A stretch of DNA of 64,000 bases, taken from positions 22,363 through 86,362 of the forward strand of contig JAZGHS010000212.1 of assembly GCA_036481315.1 (NCBI GenBank), read 5' to 3'. Source of the stretch: Candidatus Zixiibacteriota bacterium. GTDB lineage: Bacteria > Zixibacteria > MSB-5A5 > UBA10806. Below are positions 4,462-42,176 of the stretch, one piece after another. Every line of letters begins with the position of its first letter. The stretch's first letter is position 1. Position numbers and translations under genes: made by a program. Under the pieces are notes generated by a model. That model saw only the letters and a program-made list of their open reading frames with translations. It did no database searches and was not told the origin of the DNA.

Positions 4462-7158
4462 ATGGTTTCCAAGCTAAGGGTTACAACATTTGTATTCGCT
4501 GCGATTCTGACTTTAGTGATTATCGCAAATGCCCAACAAAGAACTTATGAAAATTCGGGAGGATCCGGCAACCTGATAACATCTGTTCCCAGGACGATGA
4601 CCTATCAGGGAATTCTAAAAGATAATGCCGGAGATCCTGTTCCCAATGAAGTGGTAAATATCACTTTTAGAATCTTCAACGACCCGTCAGCCGGAGATTT
4701 GATGTGGGATGACGCACTTTCTATATCCACCGATGACGGCGGGTATTTCATGGCTTCCCTGGTAAATTTGAATATTCCATTCGATGAGAATTACTACCTG
4801 GAATTACAGGTAGAGGGCGAATCACCCATGGCTCCGCGGATACCGCTCGATATGTCGGCATACGCCGCCCGATCAGATACCAGCGATTACGCTTTCGCCG
4901 GTGGCGGCTGGGTCGACGACGGTTTCACTGTCAGACTTCAATCATCTATCGACAATGTCGGTATCGGGACATCGAGCCCATCGAACAAACTGCATGTTGT
5001 CGGTTCCGAATCTGTTCCCATACTCAATGTCGAGCAAACAGGATCGTTCAGGGCGGCCCGGTTCTTCAGCCAGAATGCATGTGCCCTATGGGTTGAGAGC
5101 GCCGGAAACCACGGGTTAAGAATCACTAACGCAGGTGGAAATGGAGTTTATGTCCAGAATGCTGGCGGTGATGGCATAAATGTAGCTAACGCTACCGGCT
5201 GGGCCGGGTATTTCAACGGCACCGGGTATTTCGCAGGAAATTTAGGGATAGGTACGGAGACACCAGCGGAGATGCTCGATGTGGCGGGAAATCTATTAGT
5301 AAGCGGTAAAGCAACCATCGGCCCGGGTCATACTAATACCGGGACCAGCGCATTTGTTGCGGGTCAGGATAACACCGCAAGCAACCAATATGCCACTGTC
5401 GGAGGCGGCAGGAACAACGCCGCAAGCGGCCAATATGCTACGGTAAGCGGCGGCGAATATAATGCCGCCAATGGTGACTATTCCACAGTCGGCGGCGGAA
5501 CCTTTAATATCGTAACGGGCTATTTTTCTACAATCGCCGGAGGCGTGGAAAACACAGTCAACGGTGAAAGTCATTCAATCGCCGGAGGAAACATGAATTC
5601 TATTTCGGGGCCAACTGGATCCTTTATCGGCGCCGGATATAGTAATAACATTACGGTTTCGAACTCCTTCATCGGCGGCGGATATGATAATACCATTACG
5701 GGTTGGGACTCCTTCATCGGGTGCGGACGGTTAAACAGCATAAGCGGCCGGCAAAGTTCAATTCCGGGAGGTCAATTCAATGCTGTTGCGGGCAACCTTA
5801 GTTTTGCCGCCGGGTACCGGGCAAAAGCCAACCATAACGGCACCTTCGTCTGGGCCGACCAGACCGACGCGAATTTTGCCTCGACCGCCGCGGATCAATT
5901 CCTCATTCGGGCATCTGGCGGCGTCGGTATCGGGACAACGAGCCCGGACTATAGGCTGGATGTACAGGGTACTGTCGGAATCGATGTCGGTTCTTTTTCT
6001 GCTGACATTCCGCTGACTATTGAAGTTCCATCCGACCACTCTGCCTTGATCTCCCGTATCGCCAAAGGCGGAAACGTCATAAACGTGGTTGACGGCGATG
6101 GTAATGTGGGTATTGGAACCTTCACCCCCGCTGAGAAATTGGATGTCGTCGGTACGGCCCAGGTGACGGGCTTAAAGATGCCTACGGGTGCTTCGAATGG
6201 TTACGTTTTAACGTCAGATGCTTCGGGAGTAGGGACCTGGCAGGCGGCGGCAGGCGGCGGAATTGGCGGAAGCGGTACGGCTAATTACGTCCCCAAGTTT
6301 ACGGCCTCCACAACTCTCGGCAATTCGATGATCTACGATGACGGAAGCAATGTCGGAATAGGGACGATAGCGCCGAACCATACACTTGAGGTGGGAGACG
6401 GCTTTGGTACTCGGTTTATTGCTATCAACGGGCAAAGCGGCGGCATGTCGGGTTATAAATTGCTGGCCGCGGGAACTCAAAAATGGTTTATGGGCATGCC
6501 CGGAATCTCACAGCTGTATTTTCGAAATGAAACAAACAACGATATAATGGTTTTACGGCAGGACGGTAATGTTGGTATCGGTACGACAACGCCAAATCAT
6601 ACTCTTGAGGTAGGAGACGGCTTTGGTACTCGGTTTATTGCTGTCAATGGACAAAGTGGCGGCATTTCGGGATATAAATTGATGGCTGGAGGATCTCAGA
6701 AATGGTTTATGGGCTTGCCTGGAATCTCACAGCTATATTTCCGAAATGAGACAAACGATGATATAATGGTTTTACGGCAGGACGGTAATGTTGGTATCGG
6801 TACGACAACTCCGGATTACAAATTGGATGTACAGGGTTCTGTCGGTATTGATACTCGTCCATATTCCGGCAATATTCCATTGACCATCGATGTTCCGGCC
6901 GACCAGGATGCGCTGATCTCCCGTATCGCCAAAGGGGGAAGCGTAATTAACGTGGTTGACAAGGATGGCCAAGTCGGCATAGGTACATTCTCCCCTCAGG
7001 GCGCGTTGGACGTTAGTTCGACTACAGGAGCATTTATCGTTCCAAGAATGACCACTACTCAGCGAGATGCCTTGACCGCGGTAAACGGCATGATTATTTA
7101 CAACACCACGGCTAATCAATTCAATTTCCGTGAAAACGGGGCCTGGGTGACAAAATGA
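4462..7158 (+). CDS. large secreted repeat protein: YadA-head-like GG-x-N repeats, eight IGT-x-P...L[DE]V tail-fibre-like repeats, Bacteroidetes-type C-terminal motif
   Basis: Signal peptide. Repeats ATVGGGRNNAASGQYATVSGGEYNAANGDYSTVGGG...; eight copies of (N/G)VGIGTxxPxxxL(D/E)V; C-terminus VPRMTTTQRDALTAVNGMIIYNTTANQFNFRENGAWV. Confidence 0.6.
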   Translation: MVSKLRVTTFVFAAILTLVIIANAQQRTYENSGGSGNLITSVPRTMTYQGILKDNAGDPVPNEVVNITFRIFNDPSAGDLMWDDALSISTDDGGYFMASLVNLNIPFDENYYLELQVEGESPMAPRIPLDMSAYAARSDTSDYAFAGGGWVDDGFTVRLQSSIDNVGIGTSSPSNKLHVVGSESVPILNVEQTGSFRAARFFSQNACALWVESAGNHGLRITNAGGNGVYVQNAGGDGINVANATGWAGYFNGTGYFAGNLGIGTETPAEMLDVAGNLLVSGKATIGPGHTNTGTSAFVAGQDNTASNQYATVGGGRNNAASGQYATVSGGEYNAANGDYSTVGGGTFNIVTGYFSTIAGGVENTVNGESHSIAGGNMNSISGPTGSFIGAGYSNNITVSNSFIGGGYDNTITGWDSFIGCGRLNSISGRQSSIPGGQFNAVAGNLSFAAGYRAKANHNGTFVWADQTDANFASTAADQFLIRASGGVGIGTTSPDYRLDVQGTVGIDVGSFSADIPLTIEVPSDHSALISRIAKGGNVINVVDGDGNVGIGTFTPAEKLDVVGTAQVTGLKMPTGASNGYVLTSDASGVGTWQAAAGGGIGGSGTANYVPKFTASTTLGNSMIYDDGSNVGIGTIAPNHTLEVGDGFGTRFIAINGQSGGMSGYKLLAAGTQKWFMGMPGISQLYFRNETNNDIMVLRQDGNVGIGTTTPNHTLEVGDGFGTRFIAVNGQSGGISGYKLMAGGSQKWFMGLPGISQLYFRNETNDDIMVLRQDGNVGIGTTTPDYKLDVQGSVGIDTRPYSGNIPLTIDVPADQDALISRIAKGGSVINVVDKDGQVGIGTFSPQGALDVSSTTGAFIVPRMTTTQRDALTAVNGMIIYNTTANQFNFRENGAWVTK
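6349..6798 (+). repeat. tandem direct duplication, 2 x 225 bp (75 aa) at about 90% nucleotide identity, inside the 4462 CDS
   Basis: NVGIGTIAPNHTLEVGDGFGTRFIAINGQSGGMSGYKLLAAGTQKWFMGMPGISQLYFRNETNNDIMVLRQDG, immediately followed by a near-identical copy. Confidence 0.8.
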
Positions 7159-7219: not shown

Positions 7220-7801
7220 ATGAGAATCAAAACGTTAATTATGTTTCTATTCTTCAGTTCGGCGGCATTTGCTCAAAATTACTCCATAGACTGGTACGTT
7301 ATCGCCTCCGGCGGCGGGCATGCCGAGTCTGACAATTATCAGACCGATGGTACGATAGGTCAATGGTTGGTCGGGACCATGTCATCGCCTAATTATATCG
7401 TGGAATCCGGCTACTGGGTCGGCGGCCAGGGTGGTGGTGGTGGTGGATGTGGCTTTTATGTTACTGGCGATTACAACGGAAGCGAATCTTTCAACGTGGC
7501 GGATATTATCAGTTCGTTCTCGAAACTGAAGACCGGCTCCCCCGACGCGGCGTTGCCGTGCGAATGTCCTCAGGGTAGCGGCAATGTCTGGGCGGTGGCT
7601 ATGGATGTCAATAACACCTGCGCTTTCAACGTAGCCGATGTCATCGCTGGATTCTCCAAGTTGAAAACCGGGTCGCCCGAATTGATTCCCTGTGAGCTTT
7701 GTCCCCCCGATTCACCGTCGCCTATACAGCCCGGGAACGAGATTATTCTTATCGTCCCGAACTTAGAGGCCAAAACCGAATTAAACCGTTCAAGCGATTG
7801 A
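7220..7801 (+). CDS. small secreted protein with a Gly-run linker and a C-terminal Cys-containing dockerin-like module
   Basis: Signal peptide ending AFA. (GGT)5 microsatellite at 7430-7444. Module GDYNGSESFNVADIISSFSKLKTGSPDAALPCECPQGSGNVWAVAMDVNNTCAFNVADVIAGFSKLKTGSPELIPCELCPP. Confidence 0.6.
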   Translation: MRIKTLIMFLFFSSAAFAQNYSIDWYVIASGGGHAESDNYQTDGTIGQWLVGTMSSPNYIVESGYWVGGQGGGGGGCGFYVTGDYNGSESFNVADIISSFSKLKTGSPDAALPCECPQGSGNVWAVAMDVNNTCAFNVADVIAGFSKLKTGSPELIPCELCPPDSPSPIQPGNEIILIVPNLEAKTELNRSSD

Positions 7802-7847
7802 ATTTGGGTTTTTTGAATTAATCGACTGTCATGTTAGCTGGGAGAGG

Positions 7848-8522
7848 GTGGTGCGAGCAGTATTCTCGTCTCTTATAACCTATATTCTCGTTTTCGCCTC
7901 CATAGCTTCAGCCACGATCATTAAGGTCCCCGAAGACTACACTACGATACAGGATGGGATAGATATAAGCGTTAACGGCGATACGGTGATGGTAGCCCCC
8001 GGGATCTATAGCGGAAGCAGGAATAGAAATATCACGACAGCTGGAAAAGCGATTCTCGTAATGGGAGAGTTCGGGGCGTTAAATACGATTATCGATTGCG
8101 CGTTCGACCAAACCGGGTTTATCATATCCGATTCGGAGGGGGCCAATACAGTTATTGCCGGTTTTACCATAAAAAATTCATTAAAGGGAATTTTTTGTGA
8201 CGGTACCTCACCGACAATCAAATCATGCATATTCAACGATTTCTTCGCCTATGGCGTTCATGTTGACGGTTATTCCGGAGACCCCGCAGTTTCTCCAATA
8301 ATAGAGGATTGCATTTTCGAACAGGTAAGCAACGATTATTTCGGTTGGGGAGACGGTATATACGGATATCGCGCGGCGAATATTACAATTTCCGGATCAA
8401 AATTCGCCAGATGCGAACACGGCATGAATTATCACGCTTATAACAACTTAAGACCTTATTTCGATATAACCAAGTGCCTGTTCCGCAATATTACCGGCAA
8501 CGGCATCTGGACTCATTCGTGA
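7848..8522 (+). CDS. secreted right-handed beta-helix protein; probably the N-terminal part of a single gene continuing in 8547..9269
   Basis: GTG start and signal peptide. Beta-helix cap IIKVPEDYTTIQDGIDISVNGDTVMVAPGIYSG. Ends at a TGA that is in frame with the next ORF. Confidence 0.55.
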   Translation: MVRAVFSSLITYILVFASIASATIIKVPEDYTTIQDGIDISVNGDTVMVAPGIYSGSRNRNITTAGKAILVMGEFGALNTIIDCAFDQTGFIISDSEGANTVIAGFTIKNSLKGIFCDGTSPTIKSCIFNDFFAYGVHVDGYSGDPAVSPIIEDCIFEQVSNDYFGWGDGIYGYRAANITISGSKFARCEHGMNYHAYNNLRPYFDITKCLFRNITGNGIWTHS

Positions 8523-8546
8523 AACTCCCTTTCACCGACGGGTTCG

Positions 8547-9269
8547 GTGCAACATTGCGATTTTCTGAATATCGGAAGCTACGATTTCTATGCCGCCTCT
8601 TGCAGTGATCCGACAACCGTTATTACCGCCGAAAACAATTTTTGGGAGGCCACCGATTCGGTAACCATAGCCGACGAGCATATTTTTGATCATGGGGATG
8701 ACGATACAGCGCCAACTGTCGATTTTATGCCGTTCCTTGCAGAACAGGTATTCGGTTTTATAACAGGAACGGTAATCAACGAGAACTCCAACCCTATCGC
8801 CGAGGTGGAGGTTTCCGTCGAAGGTACGTTGAATAATACTTTCACCGATATCGACGGCGAGTATTTACTCGAGAATCTCTCAACCGGTTATTTCAATATT
8901 GTCTTCGCTCATCCCGATTACAGGGATTCTACCGTTTCAGAATTATTCATCTCAATAGGCGATACCGTAACCATGAACATGACATTACAGCCGCCCTGCC
9001 CGTATACACTCGGGGATTTTAACGGAAATGAAATTGTGAATATCGCCGATCTGATCGCCGCTTTTTCAAAGTTGAGAACCGGATCGCCGGAACCGGCCCT
9101 GGTATGCGAATGCCCCGTCGGGAGAGATGCCTGGATCGTGGTAATGGACGTTAACAACAGTTGCGAATTTAACATCGCCGACATCATATTATTCTTCTCA
9201 AAGCTGTCGACCGGCTCACCCGATCTTATACCGTGCGAACTTTGCCCCCCGCCGGGATGGGAACCGTAG
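8547..9269 (+). CDS. beta-helix continuation, carboxypeptidase-regulatory-like beta-sandwich, C-terminal Cys-containing dockerin-like module
   Basis: No signal peptide of its own. Same frame as 7848..8522. Module GDFNGNEIVNIADLIAAFSKLRTGSPEPALVCECPVGRDAWIVVMDVNNSCEFNIADIILFFSKLSTGSPDLIPCELCPPP. Confidence 0.55.
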   Translation: MQHCDFLNIGSYDFYAASCSDPTTVITAENNFWEATDSVTIADEHIFDHGDDDTAPTVDFMPFLAEQVFGFITGTVINENSNPIAEVEVSVEGTLNNTFTDIDGEYLLENLSTGYFNIVFAHPDYRDSTVSELFISIGDTVTMNMTLQPPCPYTLGDFNGNEIVNIADLIAAFSKLRTGSPEPALVCECPVGRDAWIVVMDVNNSCEFNIADIILFFSKLSTGSPDLIPCELCPPPGWEP

Positions 9270-19651: not shown

Positions 19652-21784
19652 ATGACAATTGAGACGGTCAATTACGATAACAGAATAGTTCGAAGTTTCG
19701 GTATCGCTACGCTGGTCTGGGGTTCGGTGGGGATGCTTGTCGGGGTGGTCATCGCCATACAGATGTTTTTTCCGGCTTTGAACCTCGGCCTTGCCTTTAC
19801 CACCTTCGGACGACTTCGCCCGCTTCACACCAACGCCGTAATTTTCGCCTTCGTGGGTAACGCCATTTTCATGTCGGTCTATCATTCCCTGCCGCGACTT
19901 TGCAAAGCCGAGATGTTCAATAAGGCCTTAAGTAAATTCCATTTCTGGGGATGGCAGGCAATTATCGTCGCCGCCACCCTGACCCTGGTAACGGGAATCA
20001 CCACCGGCAAAGAGTACGCCGAACTGGAGTGGCCGATCGATATCCTGATCGCGGTAGTCTGGCTCGCGTTTGGCGCGAACATGTTCGGAACCATTTTCAA
20101 ACGTAGAGAACAGCATATGTACGTGGCGGTCTGGTTCTATATCGCTACATTCATCACCGTTACGATCCTCCACGTAGTCAACTCGATCGAACTACCTGTA
20201 TCATTTTTAAAAAGCTATCCGGTCTATGCCGGCGTTCAGGACGCCCTAGTGCAATGGTGGTACGGCCACAACGCGGTCGCCTTCTTTTTAACAACTCCAT
20301 ATCTCGGCATGATGTATTACTACCTGCCCAAAGCGGCCAACAGGCCGGTCTTCTCCTACAGGCTTTCCATAGTCCACTTCTGGGCGCTCATATTTATCTA
20401 CATTTGGGCCGGACCGCATCACCTGCTCTACTCGGCAATCCCCGACTGGGTTCAATCATTGGGCACCGTTTTCTCCATCATGCTCATCGCGCCGTCGTGG
20501 GGCGGTATGCTTAACGGCCTGCTTACGTTACGCGGAGCGTGGGATAAGGTACGAACAAGCCATGTCCTGAAATTTATGGTGGTAGCGATTACCGCCTACG
20601 GCATGGCCACCTTCGAGGGGCCGATGCTCGCGTTGAAAAACGTAAACGCCCTCTCCCATTTCACCGACTGGACGATAGCCCATACACATGTGGGGGCGTT
20701 AGGATGGAACGGTTTTCTGACTTTCGGGATTTTGTACTGGCTTATACCTCGTCTGTACGGAACGAAACTGTATTCGGATAAAATGGCCAACGCTCATTTC
20801 TGGATCGGTTTTCTGGGCATTCTGATCTATGTGATACCAATGTATTTCGCCGGGATAATCGAGGGTTTGATGTGGAAAGAGTTCACTCCCGACGGTTTCC
20901 TGCGCTACCCTAATTTCCTTGAGACGGTGCTTCAGGTAATTCCGATGTATATCATCCGGGCTGTGGGCGGAACGCTCTTTTTAATCGGAATGCTGTTGAT
21001 GACATTCAATCTCTTCAAAACAATAAGACTGGGATCGCTTATAGCCGAGGAAAAGGTCGAAGTCCCCGCCCTGGAAAACAACCGCGAAGAAATATACAAT
21101 CGCCGCAATTTCCACAGGTGGATCGAGAGACGTCCGGTGAAGTTTATCCTGGCCGCCACGGTCGCGGTATTGATAGGCGGGATTGTCGAAATGGTTCCGA
21201 CCTTCTTGATAAAATCGAATATCCCGACCATATCAAGCGTGAAACCCTACACGCCGCTGGAACTTCAGGGAAGGGATATTTACATAGCAGAGGGATGCTA
21301 CAACTGCCATTCTCAAATGATCAGACCTTTCAGATCGGAAACCGAACGTTACGGCGAATATTCCAAAGCGGGTGAATATGTTTACGATCATCCGTTCCAA
21401 TGGGGATCTAAACGCACCGGCCCCGATCTGATGCGGGTGGGAGGTAAATACCCCGATGCCTGGCATTATGGCCACATGATCGATCCCCCCTCGATGTCGC
21501 CCGGTTCGATAATGCCGCCGTATCCGTGGCTTGCCAACAACGAACTCGATATCGGTTCCACTCCGGCAAAGATTAACGCGATGCGGAAACTCGGCGTACC
21601 CTATCCGGAAGGCTACGAGAATATAGCAATCGAGGATCTTAATTCCCAAGCCAGGCAGATTGTCGGTATTTTAGGCGAGGCCGGTATCGAAATAAAAACC
21701 GATAGACAGATAATCGCCCTTATCGCCTATCTGCAAAGGATGGGGACAGACATCAAAGTCCAGAGGGAAGGGGGAGCGCGATGA
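19652..21784 (+). CDS. ccoN: cbb3-type cytochrome c oxidase, fused subunits I and II (CcoNO)
   Basis: 710 aa. Haem-copper oxidase helices with conserved His. C-terminal CcoO moiety with CYNCHSQ and GPDL..VGGKY..WHYGHMIDP. Confidence 0.85.
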   Translation: MTIETVNYDNRIVRSFGIATLVWGSVGMLVGVVIAIQMFFPALNLGLAFTTFGRLRPLHTNAVIFAFVGNAIFMSVYHSLPRLCKAEMFNKALSKFHFWGWQAIIVAATLTLVTGITTGKEYAELEWPIDILIAVVWLAFGANMFGTIFKRREQHMYVAVWFYIATFITVTILHVVNSIELPVSFLKSYPVYAGVQDALVQWWYGHNAVAFFLTTPYLGMMYYYLPKAANRPVFSYRLSIVHFWALIFIYIWAGPHHLLYSAIPDWVQSLGTVFSIMLIAPSWGGMLNGLLTLRGAWDKVRTSHVLKFMVVAITAYGMATFEGPMLALKNVNALSHFTDWTIAHTHVGALGWNGFLTFGILYWLIPRLYGTKLYSDKMANAHFWIGFLGILIYVIPMYFAGIIEGLMWKEFTPDGFLRYPNFLETVLQVIPMYIIRAVGGTLFLIGMLLMTFNLFKTIRLGSLIAEEKVEVPALENNREEIYNRRNFHRWIERRPVKFILAATVAVLIGGIVEMVPTFLIKSNIPTISSVKPYTPLELQGRDIYIAEGCYNCHSQMIRPFRSETERYGEYSKAGEYVYDHPFQWGSKRTGPDLMRVGGKYPDAWHYGHMIDPPSMSPGSIMPPYPWLANNELDIGSTPAKINAMRKLGVPYPEGYENIAIEDLNSQARQIVGILGEAGIEIKTDRQIIALIAYLQRMGTDIKVQREGGAR

Positions 21785-21975
21785 TCGGCGAGGTACTACA
21801 AACGATAAAGGGAATTGCACTGTTTCCAACCGTATCCCTGGTGATCTTCTTTGGATTTTTCGTCTCTATGATCGTATGGGTGGCCGGTCTGGATAAAGGT
21901 TACCGCGAGAAAATGAAAAGCATGCCCCTTAACGAGGACGGCAGCTTAAGCGACGGAGATCGGGATGATGGATAA
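21781..21975 (+). CDS. ccoQ: small membrane subunit, CcoQ/FixQ-like
   Basis: 64 aa, one TM helix, acidic tail; 4-bp overlap with ccoNO, 11-bp overlap with ccoP. Confidence 0.45.
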   Translation: MIGEVLQTIKGIALFPTVSLVIFFGFFVSMIVWVAGLDKGYREKMKSMPLNEDGSLSDGDRDDG

Positions 21976-23200: not shown

Positions 23201-23206
23201 TGTAAA

Positions 23207-28361: not shown

Positions 28362-31238
28362 ATGAAAAAAGTTACTGTTTTCGCACTGCTTCCACTCATG
28401 TTGATCGCACTCCTCATGAATGTCGCCTCGAGTGAGCAAAACGCCAAATCCGACGCATTGCGCAGCCTTAAGGCCGATTTTCCCGGTATTCGGGCCTATT
28501 CCGAGGGTCAAAATATCACACGTGTTTTCGGGAAACAAATCGGGAACGGATCATCGCCGGAAAACTCAGCCGAGCTATTCAAAAACGAATATGTCGAACT
28601 TTTCGGGGTTTCCCCCGGGGATTTGAAGCCGGGAAGCAATCTCGTCGGCGGATTGAGAACGTTACCGCTGATGTACAACAAGGAGACAGGAGAACGTAAA
28701 TTCACGCTTGTCTACTATTCTCAATACGGAAATGACATCCCCGTCTTCAGGGCCGATCTCGGGCTTCTGGTCCGAAACGAATCGGGATTTCCCCTGGTAA
28801 TGGCGGCGTCGGCGCTGCGAGACCTTGACGGCTTCGAGGTCCCATTGGGTGTCGGGATCAATGCCCCGATGGCTCAAAACGCTGTTAAATCTTTCTACGC
28901 GGAACTTATCAATTTCAGCGAACCGAGGCTGGTAATATGGGCTGGGATCAACGATCAGATCGTCAGACCGGCCGTGGCTATGGAAATAATCGCTGACAAC
29001 GACAAATACGCGACACCCGATTACGAGAAATGGCTATTCTTGGTCGACGCGTTAACCGGGGAGTTGCTTTATACGGAAGATATGATCCTCAATACCGATA
29101 TCACCGGTAATGTAAGCGGTATGGCGACCGAAGGTTGGGGTGCCGATATCTGCTCTACCGAAGCAGTCACTTCGATGCCTTATGTTCGTGCCGAAATTCA
29201 GGGAGGGGAATGGGTTTACGCCGACGAGAGCGGCGATTTTGTTATCCCCAACGACGGGGATCTCGAGGACACGGTCATTTCCGAAATTCGCGGCCAGTGG
29301 TTCAGGGTGAATAACCAGTACGGCTCTAACGCCCGTTTGACAGAATCGGTTATCCCTCCGGGACCGGTCAATTTTATCCATAACGAAACGAATAACCGCG
29401 AACATAACCTGGCCGAGGTTAATGGTTATATTCACGCTAATGTAGTCCGCGATTATACGCTGACTTACAACGATACCTTTCCGACAATTCGCGACCAGGA
29501 AAATTTCCCCGTAAACGTTAATCTCAATGATAACTGTAACGCCTACTACGATTATAGCTCCATCAACTTTTATACCTCCGGCGGGGGATGTGCCAACACC
29601 GCTTTTTCGACCGTTGTTCATCACGAATACGGACATCACCTGGTAGCTGTGGCGGGAAGCGGGCAGGGCCAATACGGCGAGGGACTCGGCGATGTTATGG
29701 GGGTTTTAATCTCCGGGGAATCCGGACTCGCCTATGGATTCTTTAATAACTGCAGTCAGCCAATGCGCGACGCTGACAACAACCTTCAATATCCCTGCAC
29801 TGGCGAGATTCACGCTTGCGGACGATTGATTTCCGGATGTATATGGGATTTGCGTAACGAGCTTATGGCTAATTATCCCGATGAGTATGAGGATATAATA
29901 GGCACCCTTCTTACTAATTCAATACCTTTGCACAGGGGAGACCTAATCACTCCTAGTATCACTATCGATTTTCTGGTTTTGGATGATGACGACGGGGATA
30001 TCGATAACGGCACCCCTCATTACGACGAAATCTGCGCCGGATTCGGTGCGCACAATATGGATTGCCCCGTAATCGTCTTGATAGATTTTGACTATCCCGA
30101 TGGTCTTCCCGAACTGGTTAACCCCTCCGGCGAGACGACGGTAGCTGTCGAGGTTATCGGAGTAACCGAAAATCCTGAACCCGGAACCGGTATGCTTTAT
30201 TACAACGACGGCTCCGGCTGGGAATCGATTGCCATGGATGAAAGTCCGGAGAATGACTACGTCGGGACTTTTCCGGAGTTCGAATGCGGATCGACGATTT
30301 CATATTATTTCAGCGCCGAGACCGAAGGCGGGACGTTGGTAACCGATCCGGGTGACGCTCCCGCAACGACATTCTCCGCGTTCGCCGCTACAGGCTATAT
30401 AACCATTTTCGCTGATGATTTCGAGACCGATCAGGGCTGGGTGGTGGAGAATTCCTCCGGCCTTACCGATGGTCAATGGGATAGAGGAATACCGGTAAAT
30501 TGCCAGAGAGGCGATCCCGATAGCGATTATGACGGTTCCGGACAGTGCTACCTTACCGACAATGACGCGGGAAATGGCTGTAACAGCGATGTCGATGGTG
30601 GAAATACATATCTCATTTCGCCCGCGTTCGACCTTACGGATATGGAAGTTATCTTCAGGTTCGCACTGTGGTACACGAACGGTTTCGGCGACGATCCCCA
30701 CAACGACGTTTTCAATGTTTGGATTTCGCCCAACGACGGCGCGGACTGGTCAATCGTCGAAACAATCGGCCCGGTGTCGGCTGCTGAGTGGCTGGACCAA
30801 TGGTATATTATCGACGATTTCATCACTCCCACCAATGAAGTAAGATTCAGGTTCGATGTCTCCGATCTCAATCAGGGTTCTATCGTTGAGGCCGCTATTG
30901 ACGCTTTCGAGATTGTCGGCTGGGAATGCGAACCGACCGATATCGCCGATGAGATAGACGATATCGATCTACCTGTCGAATTCGCTCTTATGGGAAGTTA
31001 TCCCAACCCATTCAACGCCACCGTAACGATTGAATACGCTCTGCCTGAACAATCGAAAGTCTCTATCGATATATTCGATCTGCTCGGTCGTAAGATAGAT
31101 ACTATCGTAGACGAAACCAGACAGGCCGGATATCATCAGGCATCGTGGAATGCCGGTCAAAACTCCACAGGCGTCTATTTCTACAGCATCAAAGCCGGAG
31201 ATTTCAACGACACGAAGAAAATGCTTCTGCTAAAATAA
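28362..31238 (+). CDS. secreted zincin metalloprotease (HExxH) with a T9SS C-terminal sorting domain
   Basis: Signal peptide. VVHHEYGHHLV ... GEGLGDV. MAM/jelly-roll-like segment (GQWDRG...GQCYLTDND). Canonical Por CTD SYPNPFNATVTIEYALPEQSKVSIDIFDLLGRKI...GVYFYSIKAGDF...KKMLLLK. Confidence 0.7.
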   Translation: MKKVTVFALLPLMLIALLMNVASSEQNAKSDALRSLKADFPGIRAYSEGQNITRVFGKQIGNGSSPENSAELFKNEYVELFGVSPGDLKPGSNLVGGLRTLPLMYNKETGERKFTLVYYSQYGNDIPVFRADLGLLVRNESGFPLVMAASALRDLDGFEVPLGVGINAPMAQNAVKSFYAELINFSEPRLVIWAGINDQIVRPAVAMEIIADNDKYATPDYEKWLFLVDALTGELLYTEDMILNTDITGNVSGMATEGWGADICSTEAVTSMPYVRAEIQGGEWVYADESGDFVIPNDGDLEDTVISEIRGQWFRVNNQYGSNARLTESVIPPGPVNFIHNETNNREHNLAEVNGYIHANVVRDYTLTYNDTFPTIRDQENFPVNVNLNDNCNAYYDYSSINFYTSGGGCANTAFSTVVHHEYGHHLVAVAGSGQGQYGEGLGDVMGVLISGESGLAYGFFNNCSQPMRDADNNLQYPCTGEIHACGRLISGCIWDLRNELMANYPDEYEDIIGTLLTNSIPLHRGDLITPSITIDFLVLDDDDGDIDNGTPHYDEICAGFGAHNMDCPVIVLIDFDYPDGLPELVNPSGETTVAVEVIGVTENPEPGTGMLYYNDGSGWESIAMDESPENDYVGTFPEFECGSTISYYFSAETEGGTLVTDPGDAPATTFSAFAATGYITIFADDFETDQGWVVENSSGLTDGQWDRGIPVNCQRGDPDSDYDGSGQCYLTDNDAGNGCNSDVDGGNTYLISPAFDLTDMEVIFRFALWYTNGFGDDPHNDVFNVWISPNDGADWSIVETIGPVSAAEWLDQWYIIDDFITPTNEVRFRFDVSDLNQGSIVEAAIDAFEIVGWECEPTDIADEIDDIDLPVEFALMGSYPNPFNATVTIEYALPEQSKVSIDIFDLLGRKIDTIVDETRQAGYHQASWNAGQNSTGVYFYSIKAGDFNDTKKMLLLK

Positions 31239-33115: not shown

Positions 33116-35614
33116 TTATTTCATTTCAGAATTAGCATCTTTAGATTTATCATCCGATAATATGTCATTTCCTCTTCTTGGCGACGGGGATCCCGGAGGG
33201 CAACTCGGGCAGGAAAATAGCTCCGGGTTTCCAGTCTTCAGTTTAGAGAATCCCGCTATCACGTCCGCGACATTAAAGCCGCAGGAGGCGTTCAAATCCA
33301 TCGCGACCGCCCAGGTATTTCCGGATCCGGGGGGGCATTCACAAAGAAGAAAAGCATCGGGCAAACCGGTTTTCAGCTTGGAAAAGGCGCTGATTATATC
33401 GGCCACATTCATTGATTCACTACCGTTGTAATCGCCGATTACATACGACCCGCATCCGCCTGTTTCGCTTAAGAATATGTAATTTGTTTTAATCTCGATA
33501 TCGGAACCGTAGGCGTTGGTAGCCGTGAGAGTTACTGTAAAATGGTCAAGTTCATTGTAAACATGGGTAGGATTAGCAAGATCACTCGTGCCGCCATCCC
33601 CGAAATCCCATAACCAGCTTGTAGGGCCGTTAATGGATAGATCGAAGAAACTTACCTCCATAGGAGGGATACCCGCGAGGGGAGAGCCCACGAAATCGGC
33701 GATAGGGGCGGCGAGGATAACCTCGATATAATCTGGTTTGCTTTCCATATCCGTACCGTAACTGTTGGTAGCCGTTAAAGTGACCGTATATGTTCCCGCA
33801 TCTTGGTAAACATATGTGGGATTAGTTAAATCGCTCGTACCCCCATCTCCGAAATCCCATGACCAGCTTGCGGGGGCGTTCGTCGAAAGGTCGCTAAAGC
33901 TCACCTCCAGGGGTACGCCACCGTTTACCGGATCTCCGCTAAAATTCGCCACCGGGGCAAGACCGTATACGATATTAATCACTGTATCCCGCGCGACACT
34001 TACATTCGTGAAGGTGACAGTATCGGGTATATCCGAAAGTGAATCGGGGCTGTAGGTAAGATCGTAAGTCTCGGGCTTGACCAGAATTTCATAGAATCCT
34101 GTGACGTCCGATTTATTTCCGGGAGTGTGAACCTCCTGTTGAGTAATACTTTCGATCGCCGTGATCCTGACATCTACTTCCGGAGTACCGTTCTCCAGAG
34201 TAATTGTCCCGGAGACAACCATTCCGGTATCCAGAGAAACGTCGTATTGGATATCAGCGAAAATCGATTGATCAAACAGCTTTGTTGCCGCCAGTAAGCG
34301 GATTCTCGGCGGCTCGAATTCCAGATGATATGTTCCCTCCGCAAGAACGGTTTGATATTGGCCCAACCCATCTGTATGATCGCCCACCAGCGGAACACTT
34401 AGATCACTCAATACATCGATAGCGTCGATATCCACATCTACGACGCTCGCCCCGAACGAATTCAGCACCGTTCCGTATAGAAGAATTCCGGTTGAAAGAA
34501 CAACATCCAGCTGTGTATCGCTATTCACGGCAACCGAATCCTCCCTGATAGGCGCAAGGTAGGGAGGAACAACAGGTGGCTTATAAACAACATCATACAT
34601 CCCGAACTGTGGGAGAACCACCTGATAAAAACCGAATTCATCTGTATCATCGCCGGGAGTGAATAGATCGACGCCGTTATTCGAGTGCCTGATATCGAGA
34701 TCCACACCGGTAACACCCGCCCCGTCAGGATCCCTTACCGTTCCATAAAAAAGAAAACCGGGTTCGATTACAAAATTCTGGGTTATATCACCGAAAACCG
34801 CTACCCCGTAGACGATTCCGGGCAATAACCGAGTTTCCGGAAGCGGAGCTACATTTATTTCATATGTTCCCTGCGGAACGAGCATTTGATAATCGCCGTT
34901 ATCATCGGTGTTATCGCTTGGAGTATAGACTTTAATGCCTGTCAGGCTGTCTTTAGCGTCGAGATCGGCGTTAGTAACCGGATCGTCGTTTAGATCTATT
35001 ACCGTTCCGGTGATAAAAAAGCCGTCTTGAAGCGTAATATCGAGCTCGGTATTGGAGTTGATCGCCATATTTTCAATCTCGACGGCAACGTACCGTGGAT
35101 TGGATATGCCGCCTCGATACCGATAGGTCACTCGAAACAGACCCGCGGGTAGAATAATTTCGTAAAGACCGTCAACATCCGTGTTATCGCCGGGAGTAAA
35201 CAATTGGACTCCTGTAATTTGATCATATACGTTTAAATCGACATCCTCTATACCATTCCCCTGGGAATCGAAAACGGTACCTGTAAATAAATGCCCGTTT
35301 TGAAGTGTTATATCGAGCGTTACGTTTGAATTTACAGACACATCCGTTAAATATACTGGTATTAATCCCGTGGAAGTTCCTGGCCTGAAACTTATATCGT
35401 AAGTACCGGCATCGACAGAAACGCTGTAAAATCCCAAAATATCCGTAGTATCAATATACGGGCCTATTGGTGAACCGTCTGGCGCGTAAAGCTGCACGGC
35501 TACGTTGTCTTCATGCCCACCGTTGGCGTCGACTGTACCCGAAATGGATTGAGCAAACGCCGAAGATGATAAAGCCATAATTATCATTAGAAGTGTTTTC
35601 CTGATGTCGAGCAT
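33116..35614 (-). CDS. secreted multi-repeat protein: about 6 carboxypeptidase-regulatory-like beta-sandwich repeats, 2 PKD domains, C-terminal Cys-containing dockerin-like module
   Basis: Signal peptide. Repeats with the D-x-D...TG....TP.DNTD..G.Y motif. Two WDFGDGGTSDL PKD domains. C-terminus GDYNGSESMNVADIISAFSKLKTGLPDAFLLCECPPGSGNTWAVAMDLNASCGFNVADVIAGFSKLKTGNPELFSCPSCPP. Confidence 0.6.
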   Translation of the reverse strand: MLDIRKTLLMIIMALSSSAFAQSISGTVDANGGHEDNVAVQLYAPDGSPIGPYIDTTDILGFYSVSVDAGTYDISFRPGTSTGLIPVYLTDVSVNSNVTLDITLQNGHLFTGTVFDSQGNGIEDVDLNVYDQITGVQLFTPGDNTDVDGLYEIILPAGLFRVTYRYRGGISNPRYVAVEIENMAINSNTELDITLQDGFFITGTVIDLNDDPVTNADLDAKDSLTGIKVYTPSDNTDDNGDYQMLVPQGTYEINVAPLPETRLLPGIVYGVAVFGDITQNFVIEPGFLFYGTVRDPDGAGVTGVDLDIRHSNNGVDLFTPGDDTDEFGFYQVVLPQFGMYDVVYKPPVVPPYLAPIREDSVAVNSDTQLDVVLSTGILLYGTVLNSFGASVVDVDIDAIDVLSDLSVPLVGDHTDGLGQYQTVLAEGTYHLEFEPPRIRLLAATKLFDQSIFADIQYDVSLDTGMVVSGTITLENGTPEVDVRITAIESITQQEVHTPGNKSDVTGFYEILVKPETYDLTYSPDSLSDIPDTVTFTNVSVARDTVINIVYGLAPVANFSGDPVNGGVPLEVSFSDLSTNAPASWSWDFGDGGTSDLTNPTYVYQDAGTYTVTLTATNSYGTDMESKPDYIEVILAAPIADFVGSPLAGIPPMEVSFFDLSINGPTSWLWDFGDGGTSDLANPTHVYNELDHFTVTLTATNAYGSDIEIKTNYIFLSETGGCGSYVIGDYNGSESMNVADIISAFSKLKTGLPDAFLLCECPPGSGNTWAVAMDLNASCGFNVADVIAGFSKLKTGNPELFSCPSCPPGSPSPRRGNDILSDDKSKDANSEMK

Positions 35615-35648: not shown

Positions 35649-37622
35649 CTATCGTACCAATAACATATTATGGGTTGAAGAACCCTTTGAAGTTTTCAAT
35701 TGATAAAAATACAAACCGCTGGCAACCTGCTCCCCACGGCCGTTATCGCCATCCCAGCTGATCGTATGGTAACCGGGTGATTTAATTCCTTTATCGATCT
35801 TTTTCACACGTTGACCGAGACTATTATAAATAATAAATGAAACATCGGTCTGAACAAATAAAACATACGATATCATGGTTCCCGCGTTAAACGGATTGGG
35901 AAAATTATCATTCAATATAAAACTGATCGGGGGCGCGCTTCCGCCCTCTGTTAGTAAAATTGTTACCGATGAATCCGACGAAATATTAAATCCCGGCAAT
36001 AACTGATTGTCCAAAGCCGTTCCGACGGGCGGCGTGACCTCTATCGTATACACGCCCGAGTGCACGGTAATGTCTGCCGTACCGTCAATATCGGTATTAT
36101 CATGCGGGGTGAAGATTGTAGACCCGGAACTTTCCAATACAAAATCGAAATCGGCGGCCTCCACCGGTGACCCCCTCGGGTCGAGCACAAGTGCGGAAAA
36201 TATATAGCCCTCTTTTAATATAATATCGTTCCAGGTAGAGTCCTGATCTATAAAGACTTTTCCCAGATTCTCACCTACGTAACGGCTTCCCCTGAGAGGC
36301 TCGATCTCGGCGTTGAAACCACCGATCGGTACAAGTATGCTGTAATTCCCCAGAGAATCGGTGATGTTATCCGCGACGTAAATTTTCGAGCCAGCCACCG
36401 TATCGGAGAAATTTATCTCGATATCCACGAGTCCGGCGCTATCGGTATTTATAATTCTCCCCGATATATTGACTTTGGGGACCTCGGGCAGGAGAAAATC
36501 CATACTGGTATCCGCGAAAATGGTTACACCGTTCAATACCAGCCGATCGTAAATAGAACCGGGAGGCGGCTGAACCCTGATAGTGTAGATATCCGCCGGA
36601 ATCGCAATTGTGGTTACGCCCATACTGTCAGTCTCATCGTTCGGAGTGAAAAGTTTCGCCCCCGTACTCTCCTGAATAATATCGAGATCGGCGCCCGCTA
36701 TGGGATTACCGGTTGAGTCATGGACAAACGTAGAAAGAAGCCATCCCGCCTCCAAAATTTGATTCCGCGCGATATCGGCGTCGACAACGAAACTATCCAA
36801 TACTACACCAACGTAAGGGCTTCCGAGAGGAGGTTCATAGCGAAGCCTATACATCCCCGCGGGAACCGCCACGTTGTGATAACCGATCATATCGGTCTCG
36901 TTATTCGTAAGGTAAATTTTCTCACCTGTTATCATCGCTCTAAGATCTATACTGATATTTTCAAGCCCCTGGCCGAGTTCATCGGTTACATATCCGCTTA
37001 ATAGCATCCCCTCCGATAAGGAAACATCGATAACAGTATCGGCATAAATAGATAGGGAATCCATCTGCATTCCGAGCCAACGGGTTCCCGCCGGCGGTTG
37101 ATATCTCAGCCTGTAATTCCCCTGCGGAACCACAATCCAGTAATTGCCCAGACTGTCGGTTTTATCGTTTGGCGTATAGATCCTCTCCCCGGTTGATAAA
37201 TTATCGGCGTCCAGATCAACTCCGAGCACCGGCGAACCGTTACCGATAACCACCCCGTGAATTATTTTACCGAATCCAAGCGTGACATCAATCCGCCGAT
37301 CCACATATATTGAATCGTTAAACCTCCGGTGCCCCAAAAGATTCGTCCCAGGCGGAGGACCGTAAGAGATATTATAAACTCCGTTAGGTACCCAGATGGC
37401 GTAATATCCATCCTGATCGGTATTATCTCCTGGTGTGGGCACTCGCTCACCGGTTACGGCGTCATCGAAATCAAGATCGACATCGGCCACCGGGTTACCG
37501 TTAGGATCGTAAACAAACCCGGTAACATACGATATCAATGTGTCGGATACGCCTAAGCTTGCAAAGGCGAGGACTATCAAAATTCCGATAATCTTTAATA
37601 ATGTCGGTAAACGATGACTCAT
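35649..37622 (-). CDS. secreted multi-repeat protein (about 6 CarboxypepD_reg-like repeats) with a T9SS C-terminal sorting domain
   Basis: Same repeat family as 33116..35614. Canonical CTD FPNPFNAGTMISYVL...IYNSLGQRV...SGLYFYQLKT...NMLLVR. Confidence 0.65.
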   Translation of the reverse strand: MSHRLPTLLKIIGILIVLAFASLGVSDTLISYVTGFVYDPNGNPVADVDLDFDDAVTGERVPTPGDNTDQDGYYAIWVPNGVYNISYGPPPGTNLLGHRRFNDSIYVDRRIDVTLGFGKIIHGVVIGNGSPVLGVDLDADNLSTGERIYTPNDKTDSLGNYWIVVPQGNYRLRYQPPAGTRWLGMQMDSLSIYADTVIDVSLSEGMLLSGYVTDELGQGLENISIDLRAMITGEKIYLTNNETDMIGYHNVAVPAGMYRLRYEPPLGSPYVGVVLDSFVVDADIARNQILEAGWLLSTFVHDSTGNPIAGADLDIIQESTGAKLFTPNDETDSMGVTTIAIPADIYTIRVQPPPGSIYDRLVLNGVTIFADTSMDFLLPEVPKVNISGRIINTDSAGLVDIEINFSDTVAGSKIYVADNITDSLGNYSILVPIGGFNAEIEPLRGSRYVGENLGKVFIDQDSTWNDIILKEGYIFSALVLDPRGSPVEAADFDFVLESSGSTIFTPHDNTDIDGTADITVHSGVYTIEVTPPVGTALDNQLLPGFNISSDSSVTILLTEGGSAPPISFILNDNFPNPFNAGTMISYVLFVQTDVSFIIYNSLGQRVKKIDKGIKSPGYHTISWDGDNGRGEQVASGLYFYQLKTSKGSSTHNMLLVR

Positions 37623-42119: not shown

Positions 42120-42176
42120 TTTTAATATGCTCCCGGTTTCCTTTAGTGATTTTCTCCGCCGATGTATCGACCGGTT

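What the first reader, a model, noticed from the sequence alone, without database searches (positions are those of the whole stretch)
7220..9269. Undescribed Cys-containing dockerin-like C-terminal module on clustered secreted proteins
Two adjacent secreted proteins, and a third at 33.2-33.5 kb, end in the same ~90-aa module. It is built from two dockerin-type Ca-binding-like segments (GDYNGSESFNVADIISSFSKLKTG / MDVNNTCAFNVADVIAGFSKLKTG) joined by invariant Cys motifs (P-C-E-C-P, N-x-C-x-F-N, C-E-L-C-P-P). Canonical dockerins have no such cysteines and occur in cellulosomal Firmicutes. Here the module sits on beta-helix and PKD cargo in a T9SS-bearing FCB genome, alternating with T9SS CTDs on paralogous neighbours. 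That pattern suggests a second cell-surface anchoring or sorting route, perhaps via a cohesin-like partner or disulfide/metal stabilisation. No cohesin is visible in this window.
Basis: partly seen in the sequence, partly recalled or inferred. Interest (0 to 1): 0.8.

Follow-up and report, generated by a model that had tools for sequence, protein, structure and literature searches.

The report
Cysteine-stapled dockerins of Zixibacteria
The repeated C-terminal module is real: it is a divergent, six-cysteine version of the calcium-binding dockerin plug, present in dozens of copies per genome in Zixibacteria, whose relatives also carry previously unannotated cohesin "sockets", so this is a new variant of a known protein-assembly system and not a new kind of sorting signal.

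Summary
Three proteins in the window end in the same 85-87-aa module: two EF-hand-type loops and six conserved Cys.

It is a dockerin. An alignment profile matches almost only solved dockerins (best E 1.4e-4). The AlphaFold model (pLDDT 96.9) matches only dockerins among its top 30 PDB hits. Ca-ligand positions are near invariant. The window copies fail Pfam Dockerin_1 and NCBIfam has no model, but relatives sit at the Pfam threshold.

The family is large: 828 cluster representatives, and at least 36 carriers in one 3.8-Mb Zixibacteria chromosome.

The missing partner exists in the lineage, though not in this window:
- Pfam-detectable cohesins are fused to this dockerin, to ordinary dockerins, or to a T9SS sorting domain.

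The module also occurs internally, and in the same chain as a T9SS sorting domain. It is therefore an assembly plug, not a secretion signal. A comparable system with a T9SS-anchored scaffoldin was already proposed for Cloacimonadota. The Cys staple and the cryptic cohesins look undescribed.

Separately, the second "protein" is one reading frame broken by a TGA. The TGA is conserved in two other genomes, making it a selenocysteine or read-through candidate.

The parts
7220..7801 (+). Small secreted protein of 193 aa. Order of parts: signal peptide (…AFA/QN), 'NYxxxW…GTIGQ…SSxNY…SGYW' domain, Gly linker, Cys-dockerin, tail.
   Evidence: Orthologues are P0005 and P0019 and L001:5734-6363.
7448..7708 (+). 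Cys-dockerin module, copy 1 (87 aa, type A helix signature FNVAD..FSKLKTG in both repeats).
   Evidence: (E 1e-37). This sequence was the one modelled: pLDDT 96.9 with dockerin-only PDB matches.
7709..7798 (+). 30-aa C-terminal tail carrying the family motif (…IILIVPNLEAKTELNRSSD).
   Evidence: The consensus in relatives is PLVVPNLESKAK plus 8 aa.
7848..9269 (+). One reading frame of 473 codons: signal peptide, right-handed beta-helix, in-frame TGA, CarboxypepD_reg domain, Cys-dockerin.
8520..8522 (+). In-frame TGA, conserved at the same aligned position in orthologues from two other Zixibacteria genomes. Candidate selenocysteine or read-through codon.
   Evidence: TGA is otherwise an ordinary stop in this window (13 of 39 ORFs).
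8530..8552 (+). Hairpin whose main 6-bp stem (8533-8549, 5-nt G-rich loop) starts 11 nt after the TGA. It is conserved in the three orthologues, with a compensatory pair in the main stem and another in its extension.
   Evidence: It is not more stable than shuffled sequence, so the evidence is weak.
8997..9251 (+). Cys-dockerin module, copy 2 (85 aa). It is followed by only PGWEP, with no tail.
   Evidence: (E 6e-34).
33116..35614 (-). Secreted protein of 832 aa: signal peptide, about 6 CarboxypepD_reg repeats, 2 PKD domains, Cys-dockerin, degenerate tail.
33194..33454 (-). Cys-dockerin module, copy 3 (87 aa).
   Evidence: (E 5e-35).
35649..37622 (-). Paralogous CarboxypepD_reg-repeat protein that ends in a T9SS C-terminal sorting domain instead of the dockerin.
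   Evidence: 28-29% identity over about 500 aa.
28362..31238 (+). Another secreted protein ending in a T9SS sorting domain. It shows that the genome uses T9SS-type cargo signals.
   Evidence: Por_Secre_tail 44.7 bits.

Best explanation
The module is a divergent bacterial dockerin. It is a pair of EF-hand-like Ca2+ loops, each followed by a helix. Three family-specific additions are pinned to this core by six conserved cysteines: an N-terminal strand, a beta-hairpin in the inter-repeat linker, and a C-terminal C-x-x-C-P-P extension.

The host is most probably a Zixibacteria-lineage bacterium. Its proteins are exported through Sec using their signal peptides, and the Cys would be oxidised in the periplasm or outside the cell (inferred).

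The dockerin then serves as a Ca2+-dependent plug. It attaches varied cargo to cohesin-fold modules. That cargo includes beta-helix, PKD, CarboxypepD_reg, S8 protease and cupredoxin-like proteins. The cohesin-fold modules sit on other members of the same protein set. Some cohesins are themselves fixed to the cell surface by a T9SS C-terminal domain (inferred).

Many carriers hold both cohesin and dockerin modules, so the expected product is a chained or networked extracellular assembly, not one scaffoldin loaded with enzymes.

Shown here: the sequence pattern, the family size and taxonomy, the dockerin fold of the model, and the cohesin fold of the co-occurring domain. Inferred: Ca2+ binding, disulfides, actual cohesin-dockerin binding, and location outside the outer membrane.
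For: Dockerin identity:
- A 60-sequence profile against all PDB sequences gives 28 hits, of which 27 are dockerins. The best is 6kg9 at E 1.4e-4, and the alignment spans both repeats.
- The AF2 model has pLDDT 96.9. The top 30 Foldseek PDB hits are all dockerins, with target-normalised TM 0.52-0.85, 0.7 or more for 27 of them.
- Ca-ligand positions are nearly fixed across 266 copies: D1 264-265, N3 261-263, D12 266/266, in both loops.
- Relatives score 19.8-25.9 bits on Pfam Dockerin_1, whose threshold is 22.9. About a quarter of relatives carry a precomputed PF00404 hit.

Family size and distribution:
- 828 cluster representatives at E<=1e-3 and 348 at E<=1e-10. The module is almost always at the C-terminus, on proteins of 90-1770 aa.
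- 219 confirmed genomic matches, 51 of the 80 listed in MAGs named Zixibacteria and the rest in MAGs labelled 'uncultured Ignavibacteria' or 'uncultured bacterium'.
- At least 36 carriers in chromosome CP070813.1, often as tandem genes.

Evidence for a shared partner:
- Both repeats of each copy keep the same helix face. That face is uniform among paralogues but differs between lineages: type A (NVAD..SKLKTG) here, type B (NGLD..YFKGG) elsewhere.
- An HMM of that domain finds it in 40 carriers. These include small proteins (signal peptide, cohesin, type-A dockerin) such as L004:4330-5196 in the sister MAG.
- P0026 and P0136 combine a Pfam Cohesin domain (35.1 and 28.2 bits, threshold 24.1) with the Cys-dockerin.
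- L079:1436-2236 combines a cohesin with a T9SS type A sorting domain (TIGR04183, 36 bits).

Cys pairing: C1 and C38 are lost together in six members, while the other four Cys are almost never lost.
Against: - No cohesin of either kind lies in this window. Among non-carrier genes of the 75 fetched genome loci the only trace is one weak, truncated candidate, L066:3-644. It has a firm T9SS CTD, but its cohesin-like start scores only E 1e-3.
- Every cohesin-fold domain I found lies on a protein that also carries a dockerin. My sample was, however, selected for dockerins.
- No binding, Ca2+ or disulfide data exist.
- Most carriers lack any recognisable outer-membrane export signal. An extracellular location is shown only indirectly, by the two subtilases that have dockerin plus T9SS CTD.
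- The window copies themselves fail Pfam Dockerin_1. The best is 13 bits at E 0.12, for one copy of three.
Confidence: 0.62

Rival explanations
1. The module, perhaps together with its conserved tail, is a C-terminal secretion or sorting signal. It would be used as an alternative to the T9SS CTD and recognised by an export or attachment machine, not by a cohesin.
For: - About 95% of copies lie within 40 aa of the C-terminus.
- Paralogous neighbours carry either this module or a T9SS CTD.
- About 110 of 350 carriers have a 20-40-aa tail. In the type-A carriers that have it, a conserved motif ends 8 aa before the C-terminus.
- Most carriers have no other recognisable outer-membrane export signal.
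Against: - The module also occurs right after the signal peptide and in the middle of large proteins.
- In two S8 subtilases it is internal and the chain ends in a T9SS CTD.
- Fold and profile say dockerin, and cohesin-fold partners co-occur.
- About half of the carriers have no tail.
Confidence: 0.12
2. It is an orphan Ca2+-binding stabilising or ligand-binding domain with no dedicated protein partner. The ligand could be a polysaccharide, a mineral or the cell envelope. This has been assumed for many non-cellulosomal dockerins.
For: - No cohesin is present in the window, and none is found on non-carrier genes in about 900 kb of flanking DNA apart from one weak, truncated candidate.
- Dockerin copies appear to outnumber detected cohesins.
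- Non-cellulosomal dockerins without known partners are widespread. This rests on my own knowledge of Peer et al. 2009, which could not be read here.
Against: - Cohesin-fold modules are fused to, or adjacent to, the module in 40 proteins.
- Helix faces are uniform among paralogues and lineage-specific. That is what a shared protein partner predicts.
Confidence: 0.14
3. The dockerins bind the cohesin in their own chain. They would act as an intramolecular clasp or auto-inhibitor and would not link different proteins.
For: - Every cohesin-fold domain found so far is in a chain that also holds a dockerin.
- Internal dockerin copies sit 15-20 aa upstream of a cohesin.
- Small dockerin-cohesin-dockerin proteins exist: P0079 and P0090.
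Against: - Most carriers, including all three in this window, have a dockerin but no cohesin. At least these must bind in trans or not at all.
- Cohesins fused to a T9SS CTD have no dockerin in cis.
Confidence: 0.07
4. Four of the six Cys (C40, C58, C82, C85: a C-x-C plus C-x-x-C arrangement) form a tetrahedral metal site, or a redox switch, and not two disulfides. Only C1-C38 would be a disulfide. This rival concerns the chemistry of the staple, not the role of the module.
For: - These four Cys are almost never lost (263-266 of 266 copies), whereas C1 and C38 are dispensable together.
- A C-x-C … C-x-x-C spacing is typical of Zn sites (my own knowledge).
Against: - The proteins are exported by Sec into an oxidising compartment, where disulfides are the rule (inference).
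- C58 is position 6 of a Ca loop, 24 residues away from C82.
- No coordinates were available to check the geometry.
Confidence: 0.2

Closest known systems
Type I dockerin of bacterial cellulosomes (Pfam PF00404 Dockerin_1; e.g. PDB 1OHZ, 4DH2, 5NRK, 6KG9)
   Same: - Two tandem repeats, each a 12-residue EF-hand-like Ca loop with D1, N3, D12 followed by a helix.
- Near two-fold internal symmetry.
- Usually C-terminal on secreted modular proteins.
- Same predicted fold.
   Different: - Six conserved Cys and three extra elements: an N-terminal strand, a linker beta-hairpin about 10 residues longer, and a C-x-x-C-P-P extension.
- Position 5 of the loops is S or N instead of D, and loop 2 has Cys at position 6.
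- The window copies fall below the Pfam threshold.
- Cargo is not carbohydrate-active enzymes.
- The host is a diderm FCB-group candidate phylum.
Cellulosome-like system proposed for Cloacimonadota 'Ca. Stygibacter' (PMC8542988)
   Same: - FCB-group bacterium.
- Signal-peptide enzymes with C-terminal dockerins, including an S8 peptidase.
- Cohesin-bearing protein anchored by a T9SS C-terminal domain.
   Different: - There, the domains were found with standard InterPro models, and one giant scaffoldin carries tandem cohesins plus CBMs.
- Here the dockerins are Cys-stapled.
- Most cohesins here are invisible to Pfam.
- Cohesins are scattered over many proteins that also carry dockerins. No multi-cohesin scaffoldin and no CBM was seen.
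Intramolecular clasp of the Ruminococcus flavefaciens ScaA dockerin (PMC3821032, listed; title only read)
   Same: A dockerin stabilised by tying its termini together.
   Different: By its title that dockerin is stabilised by an intramolecular clasp; how the clasp is made is my recollection, not read here. In this module the tie would be covalent, with C1-C38 inferred from co-loss.
Fungal dockerins of anaerobic fungi (Cys-rich, disulfide-bonded)
   Same: A Cys-rich C-terminal docking module.
   Different: An unrelated small beta fold with no EF-hand loops. No Pfam hit to it at E<=10.
T9SS type A C-terminal sorting domain (TIGR04183 / PF18962)
   Same: An ~80-aa C-terminal module on the same kinds of cargo in the same genome. 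It is interchangeable with this module among paralogues.
   Different: - It is a beta-sandwich, not a helical EF-hand pair.
- There is no sequence match.
- The two modules can occur in one chain.

Membership tests
Dockerin (type I-like, Pfam PF00404) | Two tandem ~22-residue segments, each a 12-residue Ca-binding loop followed by a helix | tested here: met
   The motif scan finds exactly two loops per module. The model has helices 17-29 and 62-74, each following a loop.
Dockerin (type I-like, Pfam PF00404) | Conserved Ca ligands at loop positions 1, 3, 5, 9 and 12 | tested here: met
   Across 266 copies and both loops: D1 264-265, N3 261-263, S/N/D at position 5, N9 232-239, D12 266/266.
Dockerin (type I-like, Pfam PF00404) | Score at or above the Pfam gathering threshold (22.9 bits) | tested here: not met
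   Window copies: no hit for two, and 13 bits at E 0.12 for one. Relatives are borderline at 19.8-25.9 bits, and about a quarter carry a precomputed PF00404 hit.
Dockerin (type I-like, Pfam PF00404) | Profile-level sequence similarity to solved dockerins | tested here: met
   27 of 28 PDB hits are dockerins. The best is E 1.4e-4 and spans both repeats.
Dockerin (type I-like, Pfam PF00404) | Dockerin three-dimensional fold | tested here: met
   This is a predicted structure only: pLDDT 96.9. The top 30 Foldseek hits are all dockerins, with TMt mostly 0.7-0.85.
Dockerin (type I-like, Pfam PF00404) | Ca2+-dependent binding to a cohesin | not testable with these tools
   Evidence is indirect only. 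Cohesin-fold modules co-occur on carriers and on T9SS-anchored proteins.
Cohesin (for the 165-aa domain of alignment A7, in relatives, not in the window) | Pfam PF00963 at the gathering threshold | tested here: not met
   No Cohesin hit at E<=10 for the isolated domain, nor at E<=0.01 in the full proteins. hhalign against Pfam-type Zixibacteria cohesins is weak.
Cohesin (for the 165-aa domain of alignment A7, in relatives, not in the window) | Cohesin beta-sandwich fold | tested here: met
Cohesin (P0026, P0136, L079, L081, L082 proteins) | Pfam PF00963 at the gathering threshold (24.1 bits) | tested here: met
   Scores of 35.1, 28.2, 38.8, 38.2 and 33.8 bits.
T9SS type A C-terminal sorting domain | Match to TIGR04183 / PF18962 at the extreme C-terminus | tested here: not met
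   No such hit on the three carriers. The neighbours 28362-31238 and 35649-37622 do have it.
Fungal (Cys-rich) dockerin | Match to the fungal dockerin/CBM10 model | tested here: not met
   No Pfam hit at E<=10 other than a weak Dockerin_1 hit.
Bacterial selenoprotein gene (for TGA 8520-8522) | In-frame UGA conserved among orthologues, with conserved coding sequence on both sides | tested here: met
   Three genomes at about 45% aa identity have the TGA at the same aligned position.
Bacterial selenoprotein gene (for TGA 8520-8522) | SECIS hairpin just downstream of the UGA | tested here: inconclusive
   A 6-bp hairpin starts 11 nt after the TGA and has a compensatory pair in its main stem. It is not more stable than shuffled sequence, z +0.44 to -0.34. 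No Rfam match.
Bacterial selenoprotein gene (for TGA 8520-8522) | Sec machinery (selA, selB, selD, tRNA-Sec) in the genome; Cys-containing homologues | not testable with these tools
   The window has no tRNA and no sel gene among the annotated ORFs. Whole genomes could not be scanned.

The most novel reading that the evidence does not exclude
Zixibacteria build a self-assembling extracellular protein lattice from dozens of Sec-exported proteins. Each protein ends in a covalently stapled dockerin, and many also carry a cryptic cohesin.

In this reading the strictly conserved four-Cys cluster is a metal or redox switch that gates docking. The conserved C-terminal tail (…PLVVPNLESKAK…) is a new signal for crossing or attaching to the outer membrane, independent of T9SS. 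At least one lattice component, 7848-9269, would be an exported selenoprotein.
Probability: 0.12. Interest if true: 0.85.

Novelty: new variant of a known kind. Interest (0 to 1): 0.55.

Why it matters
- Cohesin-dockerin pairs are the standard natural 'plug and socket' for building extracellular protein machines, and they are widely used in synthetic biology.
- A phylum-wide expansion would extend the system well beyond plant cell-wall degradation. Here the plug is pinned by cysteines, the sockets escape current domain models, and the cargo is adhesin-like and proteolytic instead of cellulolytic.
- The result gives Zixibacteria, an uncultured sediment phylum, a concrete and testable surface architecture.
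- Covalently stapled dockerins could be useful as unusually robust assembly tags.
- Standard Pfam- or InterPro-based surveys probably undercount cohesin-dockerin systems.
- The conserved in-frame TGA, if it encodes Sec, would be a rare case of an exported non-redox-enzyme selenoprotein.

Tried and rejected
- Pfam and NCBIfam on the module alone and on whole proteins gave nothing usable for the window copies.
- Literature searches found no description of the module: dockerin+Zixibacteria gave 0 papers. Searches on Cys, disulfide and T9SS with dockerin found only fungal dockerins and the Cloacimonadota case. Peer et al. 2009 is not held.
- Provenance look-ups by exact protein failed for three proteins, so the source contig is unknown. 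Assignment to Zixibacteria rests on the nearest homologues.
- The afdb50 fold library was unavailable.
- Pfam-type cohesins were searched in the window and 75 loci by jackhmmer and a mixed HMM. This gave no firm hit, only the truncated candidate L066:3-644. Its T9SS CTD is solid, but the cohesin part is not confirmed by Pfam.
- The metagenome scan for that cohesin family returned only 5 loci, because the search patterns were narrow.
- hhalign between the cryptic and the Pfam-type cohesins was weak. Their relationship rests on fold only.
- I considered a global TGA reassignment and rejected it: 13 of 39 window ORFs end in TGA.
- I considered the 8547 ORF as an independent gene. This is unlikely, because it has no signal peptide, the 8 codons between the TGA and its GTG are conserved as protein, and three genomes show the same frame continuity.
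- A strict regular expression for the tail motif matched only 25 of 110 tails. The motif is well defined only in type-A carriers.
Full report
**1. What is in the sequence**

Three ORFs in the window end in the same module. A six-frame motif scan finds exactly six EF-hand-type loops (D-x-N-x-[ST]-x-x-x-N-x-x-D), two in each of three places and nowhere else. The modules lie at 7448-7708 (+), 8997-9251 (+) and 33194-33454 (-), all confirmed by translation.

Each module runs from a first Cys to C-x-x-C-P-P and is 85-87 aa long. The six Cys fall at the same places in all three copies. The copies are 62-79% identical, while the upstream cargo differs:
- a small 'NY…GTIGQ…' domain;
- a beta-helix plus a CarboxypepD_reg domain;
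- six CarboxypepD_reg repeats plus two PKD domains.

All three proteins start with a signal peptide if the second gene is read from 7848.

**2. A correction to the gene model**

ORFs 7848-8522 and 8547-9269 lie in the same frame and are separated by a single TGA at 8520-8522. The first holds the signal peptide and beta-helix. The second holds CarboxypepD_reg and the dockerin, and has no signal peptide of its own.

Orthologues in two other Zixibacteria genomes are about 45% identical to the window protein. These are L047 (from CP070742.1) and L015 (from CP070813.1). Both have a TGA at exactly the same aligned position, inside a conserved motif: GIWTHS-TGA-(N/H)(S/Q)xSP(T/A)GS(V/A)Q(H/Y)C.

Eleven nucleotides downstream, all three have the same 6-bp hairpin with a G-rich 5-nt loop. 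One compensatory pair in its main stem is created by two non-synonymous changes. The hairpin is no more stable than shuffled sequence, and Rfam has nothing there.

TGA is an ordinary stop for 13 of 39 window ORFs, so the code is not reassigned. I read this as a candidate selenocysteine or programmed read-through site. It is unproven.

**3. What the module is**

Pfam does not recognise the window copies. The best result is Dockerin_1 at 13 bits, E 0.12, for one of three. NCBIfam has no model for them.

Other evidence identifies it as a dockerin:
- A profile of 60 family members searched against all PDB sequences returns 28 hits, of which 27 are dockerins. The best is 6kg9 at E 1.4e-4, aligned across both repeats.
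- The AlphaFold2 model of copy 1 is very confident: pLDDT 96.9, with two helices after the two loops and a beta-hairpin in the linker.
- The top 30 Foldseek matches in the PDB are all dockerins, with target-normalised TM mostly 0.7-0.85.
- Across 266 aligned copies the Ca-ligand positions are almost fixed: D1, N3 and D12 in at least 261 of 266, in both loops.
- More canonical relatives in the same family reach or approach the Pfam threshold, at 19.8-25.9 bits against 22.9. About a quarter of short relatives carry a precomputed PF00404 hit.

The module is therefore a divergent branch of the dockerin family, not a new fold.

**4. The cysteines**

Of 249 full-length copies, 228 have all six Cys. 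Cys at position 6 of loop 2 and Cys82 are present in 266 of 266 copies, and Cys40 and Cys85 in 263 of 266.

Six members lack both C1 and C38 and keep the other four. This argues for a C1-C38 pair that ties the N-terminal strand to the linker hairpin.

The remaining four (C40, C58, C82, C85) could form two disulfides, fixing the C-terminal extension to loop 2 and to the hairpin. Alternatively they could form one four-Cys metal site.

In the library I could search, only fungal dockerins are associated with disulfides, and they have an unrelated fold.

**5. How widespread it is**

An exhaustive HMM search of 1.84 billion representatives gives 828 proteins at E<=1e-3 and 348 at E<=1e-10. The module is nearly always at the C-terminus of proteins of 90 to 1770 aa.

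In species-representative genomes there are 219 confirmed matches. Of the 80 listed, 51 are in MAGs named Zixibacteria. The rest are in MAGs labelled 'uncultured Ignavibacteria' or 'uncultured bacterium'. One complete 3.83-Mb chromosome, CP070813.1, contributes 20 loci holding at least 36 carrier genes, often in tandem runs of three or four.

Two helix signatures exist:
- type A (FNVAD..FSKLKTG) in this window and in its sister MAG;
- type B (FNGLD..YFKGGP) in other Zixibacteria.

Within a genome the paralogues share the signature. Within a module both repeats share it. That is the pattern expected when many plugs must fit one kind of socket, possibly in two orientations.

About 30% of carriers add a 20-40-aa tail. 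In type A the tail reads …GGDxPLVVPNLESKAK… plus 8 aa. Copy 1 in the window has it, copy 3 has a degenerate version, and copy 2 has none. Its role is unexplained.

**6. The partner**

The window has no cohesin, and none turned up among non-carrier genes in 75 genomic loci, about 900 kb. The only trace there is one weak, truncated candidate, L066:3-644. The lineage does have cohesins, of two kinds.

(a) Pfam-detectable cohesins:
- P0026 (with a type-A dockerin) and P0136 (type B) are about 275-aa proteins made of signal peptide, Cohesin (35.1 and 28.2 bits, threshold 24.1) and Cys-dockerin.
- The same cohesin family also occurs fused to an ordinary dockerin (P0263, L081, L082).
- In L079:1436-2236 it is fused to a T9SS type A sorting domain, making a surface-anchored socket (TIGR04183, 36 bits).

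(b) A cryptic cohesin:
- A conserved ~165-aa domain directly follows internal or N-terminal dockerin copies in large carriers. It has no Pfam hit even at E<=10.
- It models at pLDDT 93.
- An HMM of this domain finds one to three copies in 40 carriers in my sample. These include ~285-aa proteins of signal peptide, cohesin and type-A dockerin, such as L004:4330-5196 in the sister MAG and P0034, P0036, P0041. They also include dockerin-cohesin-dockerin minis, P0079 and P0090.

**7. Sorting signal or plug?**

The module alternates with the T9SS CTD among paralogues. Proteins 33116-35614 and 35649-37622 are 28-29% identical over their repeats.

However, the module also occurs straight after the signal peptide and in the middle of chains. 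In two S8 subtilases (L013, L016) it is internal while the chain ends in a T9SS CTD.

This fits a binding module that works after export, not a signal that drives export. How carriers without a T9SS CTD cross the outer membrane is unknown. The conserved tail is the only candidate signal I can point to.

**8. Most likely mechanism**

- Sec export: inferred from the signal peptides.
- Oxidative stapling and Ca2+ loading of the dockerin: inferred.
- Docking of helices 1 and 3 onto cohesin-fold modules on other carriers, or on T9SS-anchored cohesin proteins: inferred from fold, co-occurrence and the conservation pattern.
- Result: a chained or networked surface assembly of adhesin-like and proteolytic proteins.

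My confidence that the module is a dockerin-fold Ca module is about 0.9. My confidence that it works by cohesin docking in trans is about 0.6.

**9. Comparison with what is known**

Non-cellulosomal dockerins and cohesins are known (Peer et al. 2009, cited in PMC8542988; not readable here). A dockerin/cohesin complex with a T9SS-anchored scaffoldin has been proposed for the FCB phylum Cloacimonadota from standard domain hits (PMC8542988). The concept is therefore not new.

Within what I could search, the new elements appear to be:
- the six-Cys stapled dockerin architecture;
- its scale in Zixibacteria;
- the Pfam-invisible cohesins distributed over dockerin-bearing proteins;
- the conserved tail.

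No paper in the library mentions dockerins in Zixibacteria. My verdict is a new variant of a known kind, of moderate interest. The conserved in-frame TGA is a separate lead worth following.

Noticed in passing
window 8520-8552 (also L047:5512, L015:4086): An in-frame TGA splits the beta-helix/dockerin gene 7848-9269. It is conserved at the same position in orthologues from two other Zixibacteria genomes. A conserved hairpin starts 11 nt downstream and has a compensatory pair in its main stem. This is a candidate selenocysteine or read-through site in an exported protein. The hairpin is not more stable than shuffled sequence.
   Followed up: partly
window 7709-7798 and 33119-33193; relatives P0030, P0043, P0060, P0064-P0072: A 20-40-aa tail follows the dockerin in about 30% of carriers. 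The type-A consensus is GGDxPLVVPNLESKAK(L/I)xTGSGM(D/E), and the motif ends 8 aa before the C-terminus. There is no Pfam or NCBIfam match, and the function is unknown. It could be a processing, export or binding signal.
   Followed up: partly
window 4462-7158 (+) and L001:35-5743: The 898-aa protein upstream of the small dockerin protein reaches no Pfam family threshold. It has YadA-head-like Gly-rich repeats and repeated 'NVGIGTxxP' units. In the sister MAG, the orthologue of the small dockerin protein also follows several tail-fibre-like genes. Some of those have an endosialidase-chaperone-like C-terminus, so the synteny is conserved.
   Followed up: partly
window 7277-7447 (residues 20-76 of ORF 7220-7801): The N-terminal 'NYSIDWYVIASGGG…S.NY…GTIGQ…SS.NY.V.SGYW' domain gives only a weak NCBIfam hit to the CPR pilus protein PamT (E 1e-4, 21.8 bits against a cut-off of 240). 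It is conserved in orthologues P0005, P0019 and L001:5734-6363.
   Followed up: no
L076:941-6243, L079:3-2236, L082:2095-8609: Small Pfam-type cohesin genes always sit immediately after, and partly overlap, a 1500-1900-aa Gly-rich beta-helix giant. That giant has a weak dockerin near its N-terminus. This is a conserved two-gene unit with interchangeable cohesin C-termini: a T9SS CTD or an ordinary dockerin in these loci (the Cys-dockerin version, P0026 and P0136, has no genomic context here).
   Followed up: partly
L013:3865-7176 and L016:1348-4524: Two S8 subtilases carry the Cys-dockerin internally (residues ~710-790). It is followed by ~190 aa of unannotated sequence and then a T9SS C-terminal sorting domain.
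   Followed up: partly
L066:3-644 (CP070742.1, cut at the locus start): A protein starts 'PGDTVIIPLQV…' with a cohesin-like first strand (E 1e-3 against my mixed cohesin HMM only). It ends in a solid T9SS CTD (Por_Secre_tail 37.5 bits) and lies 1 kb upstream of a 1534-aa Cys-dockerin protein. It is a possible anchored socket, but Pfam does not confirm the cohesin part.
   Followed up: partly
window 19652-23965; 37637-49263; 24176-25078 and 56138-57049: Other content of the window: cbb3-type cytochrome oxidase genes; an alginate-export-like porin, kinase-like genes, an ABC exporter, a glycosyltransferase cluster and a UDP-glucose dehydrogenase; and two DUF6599 genes.
   Followed up: no
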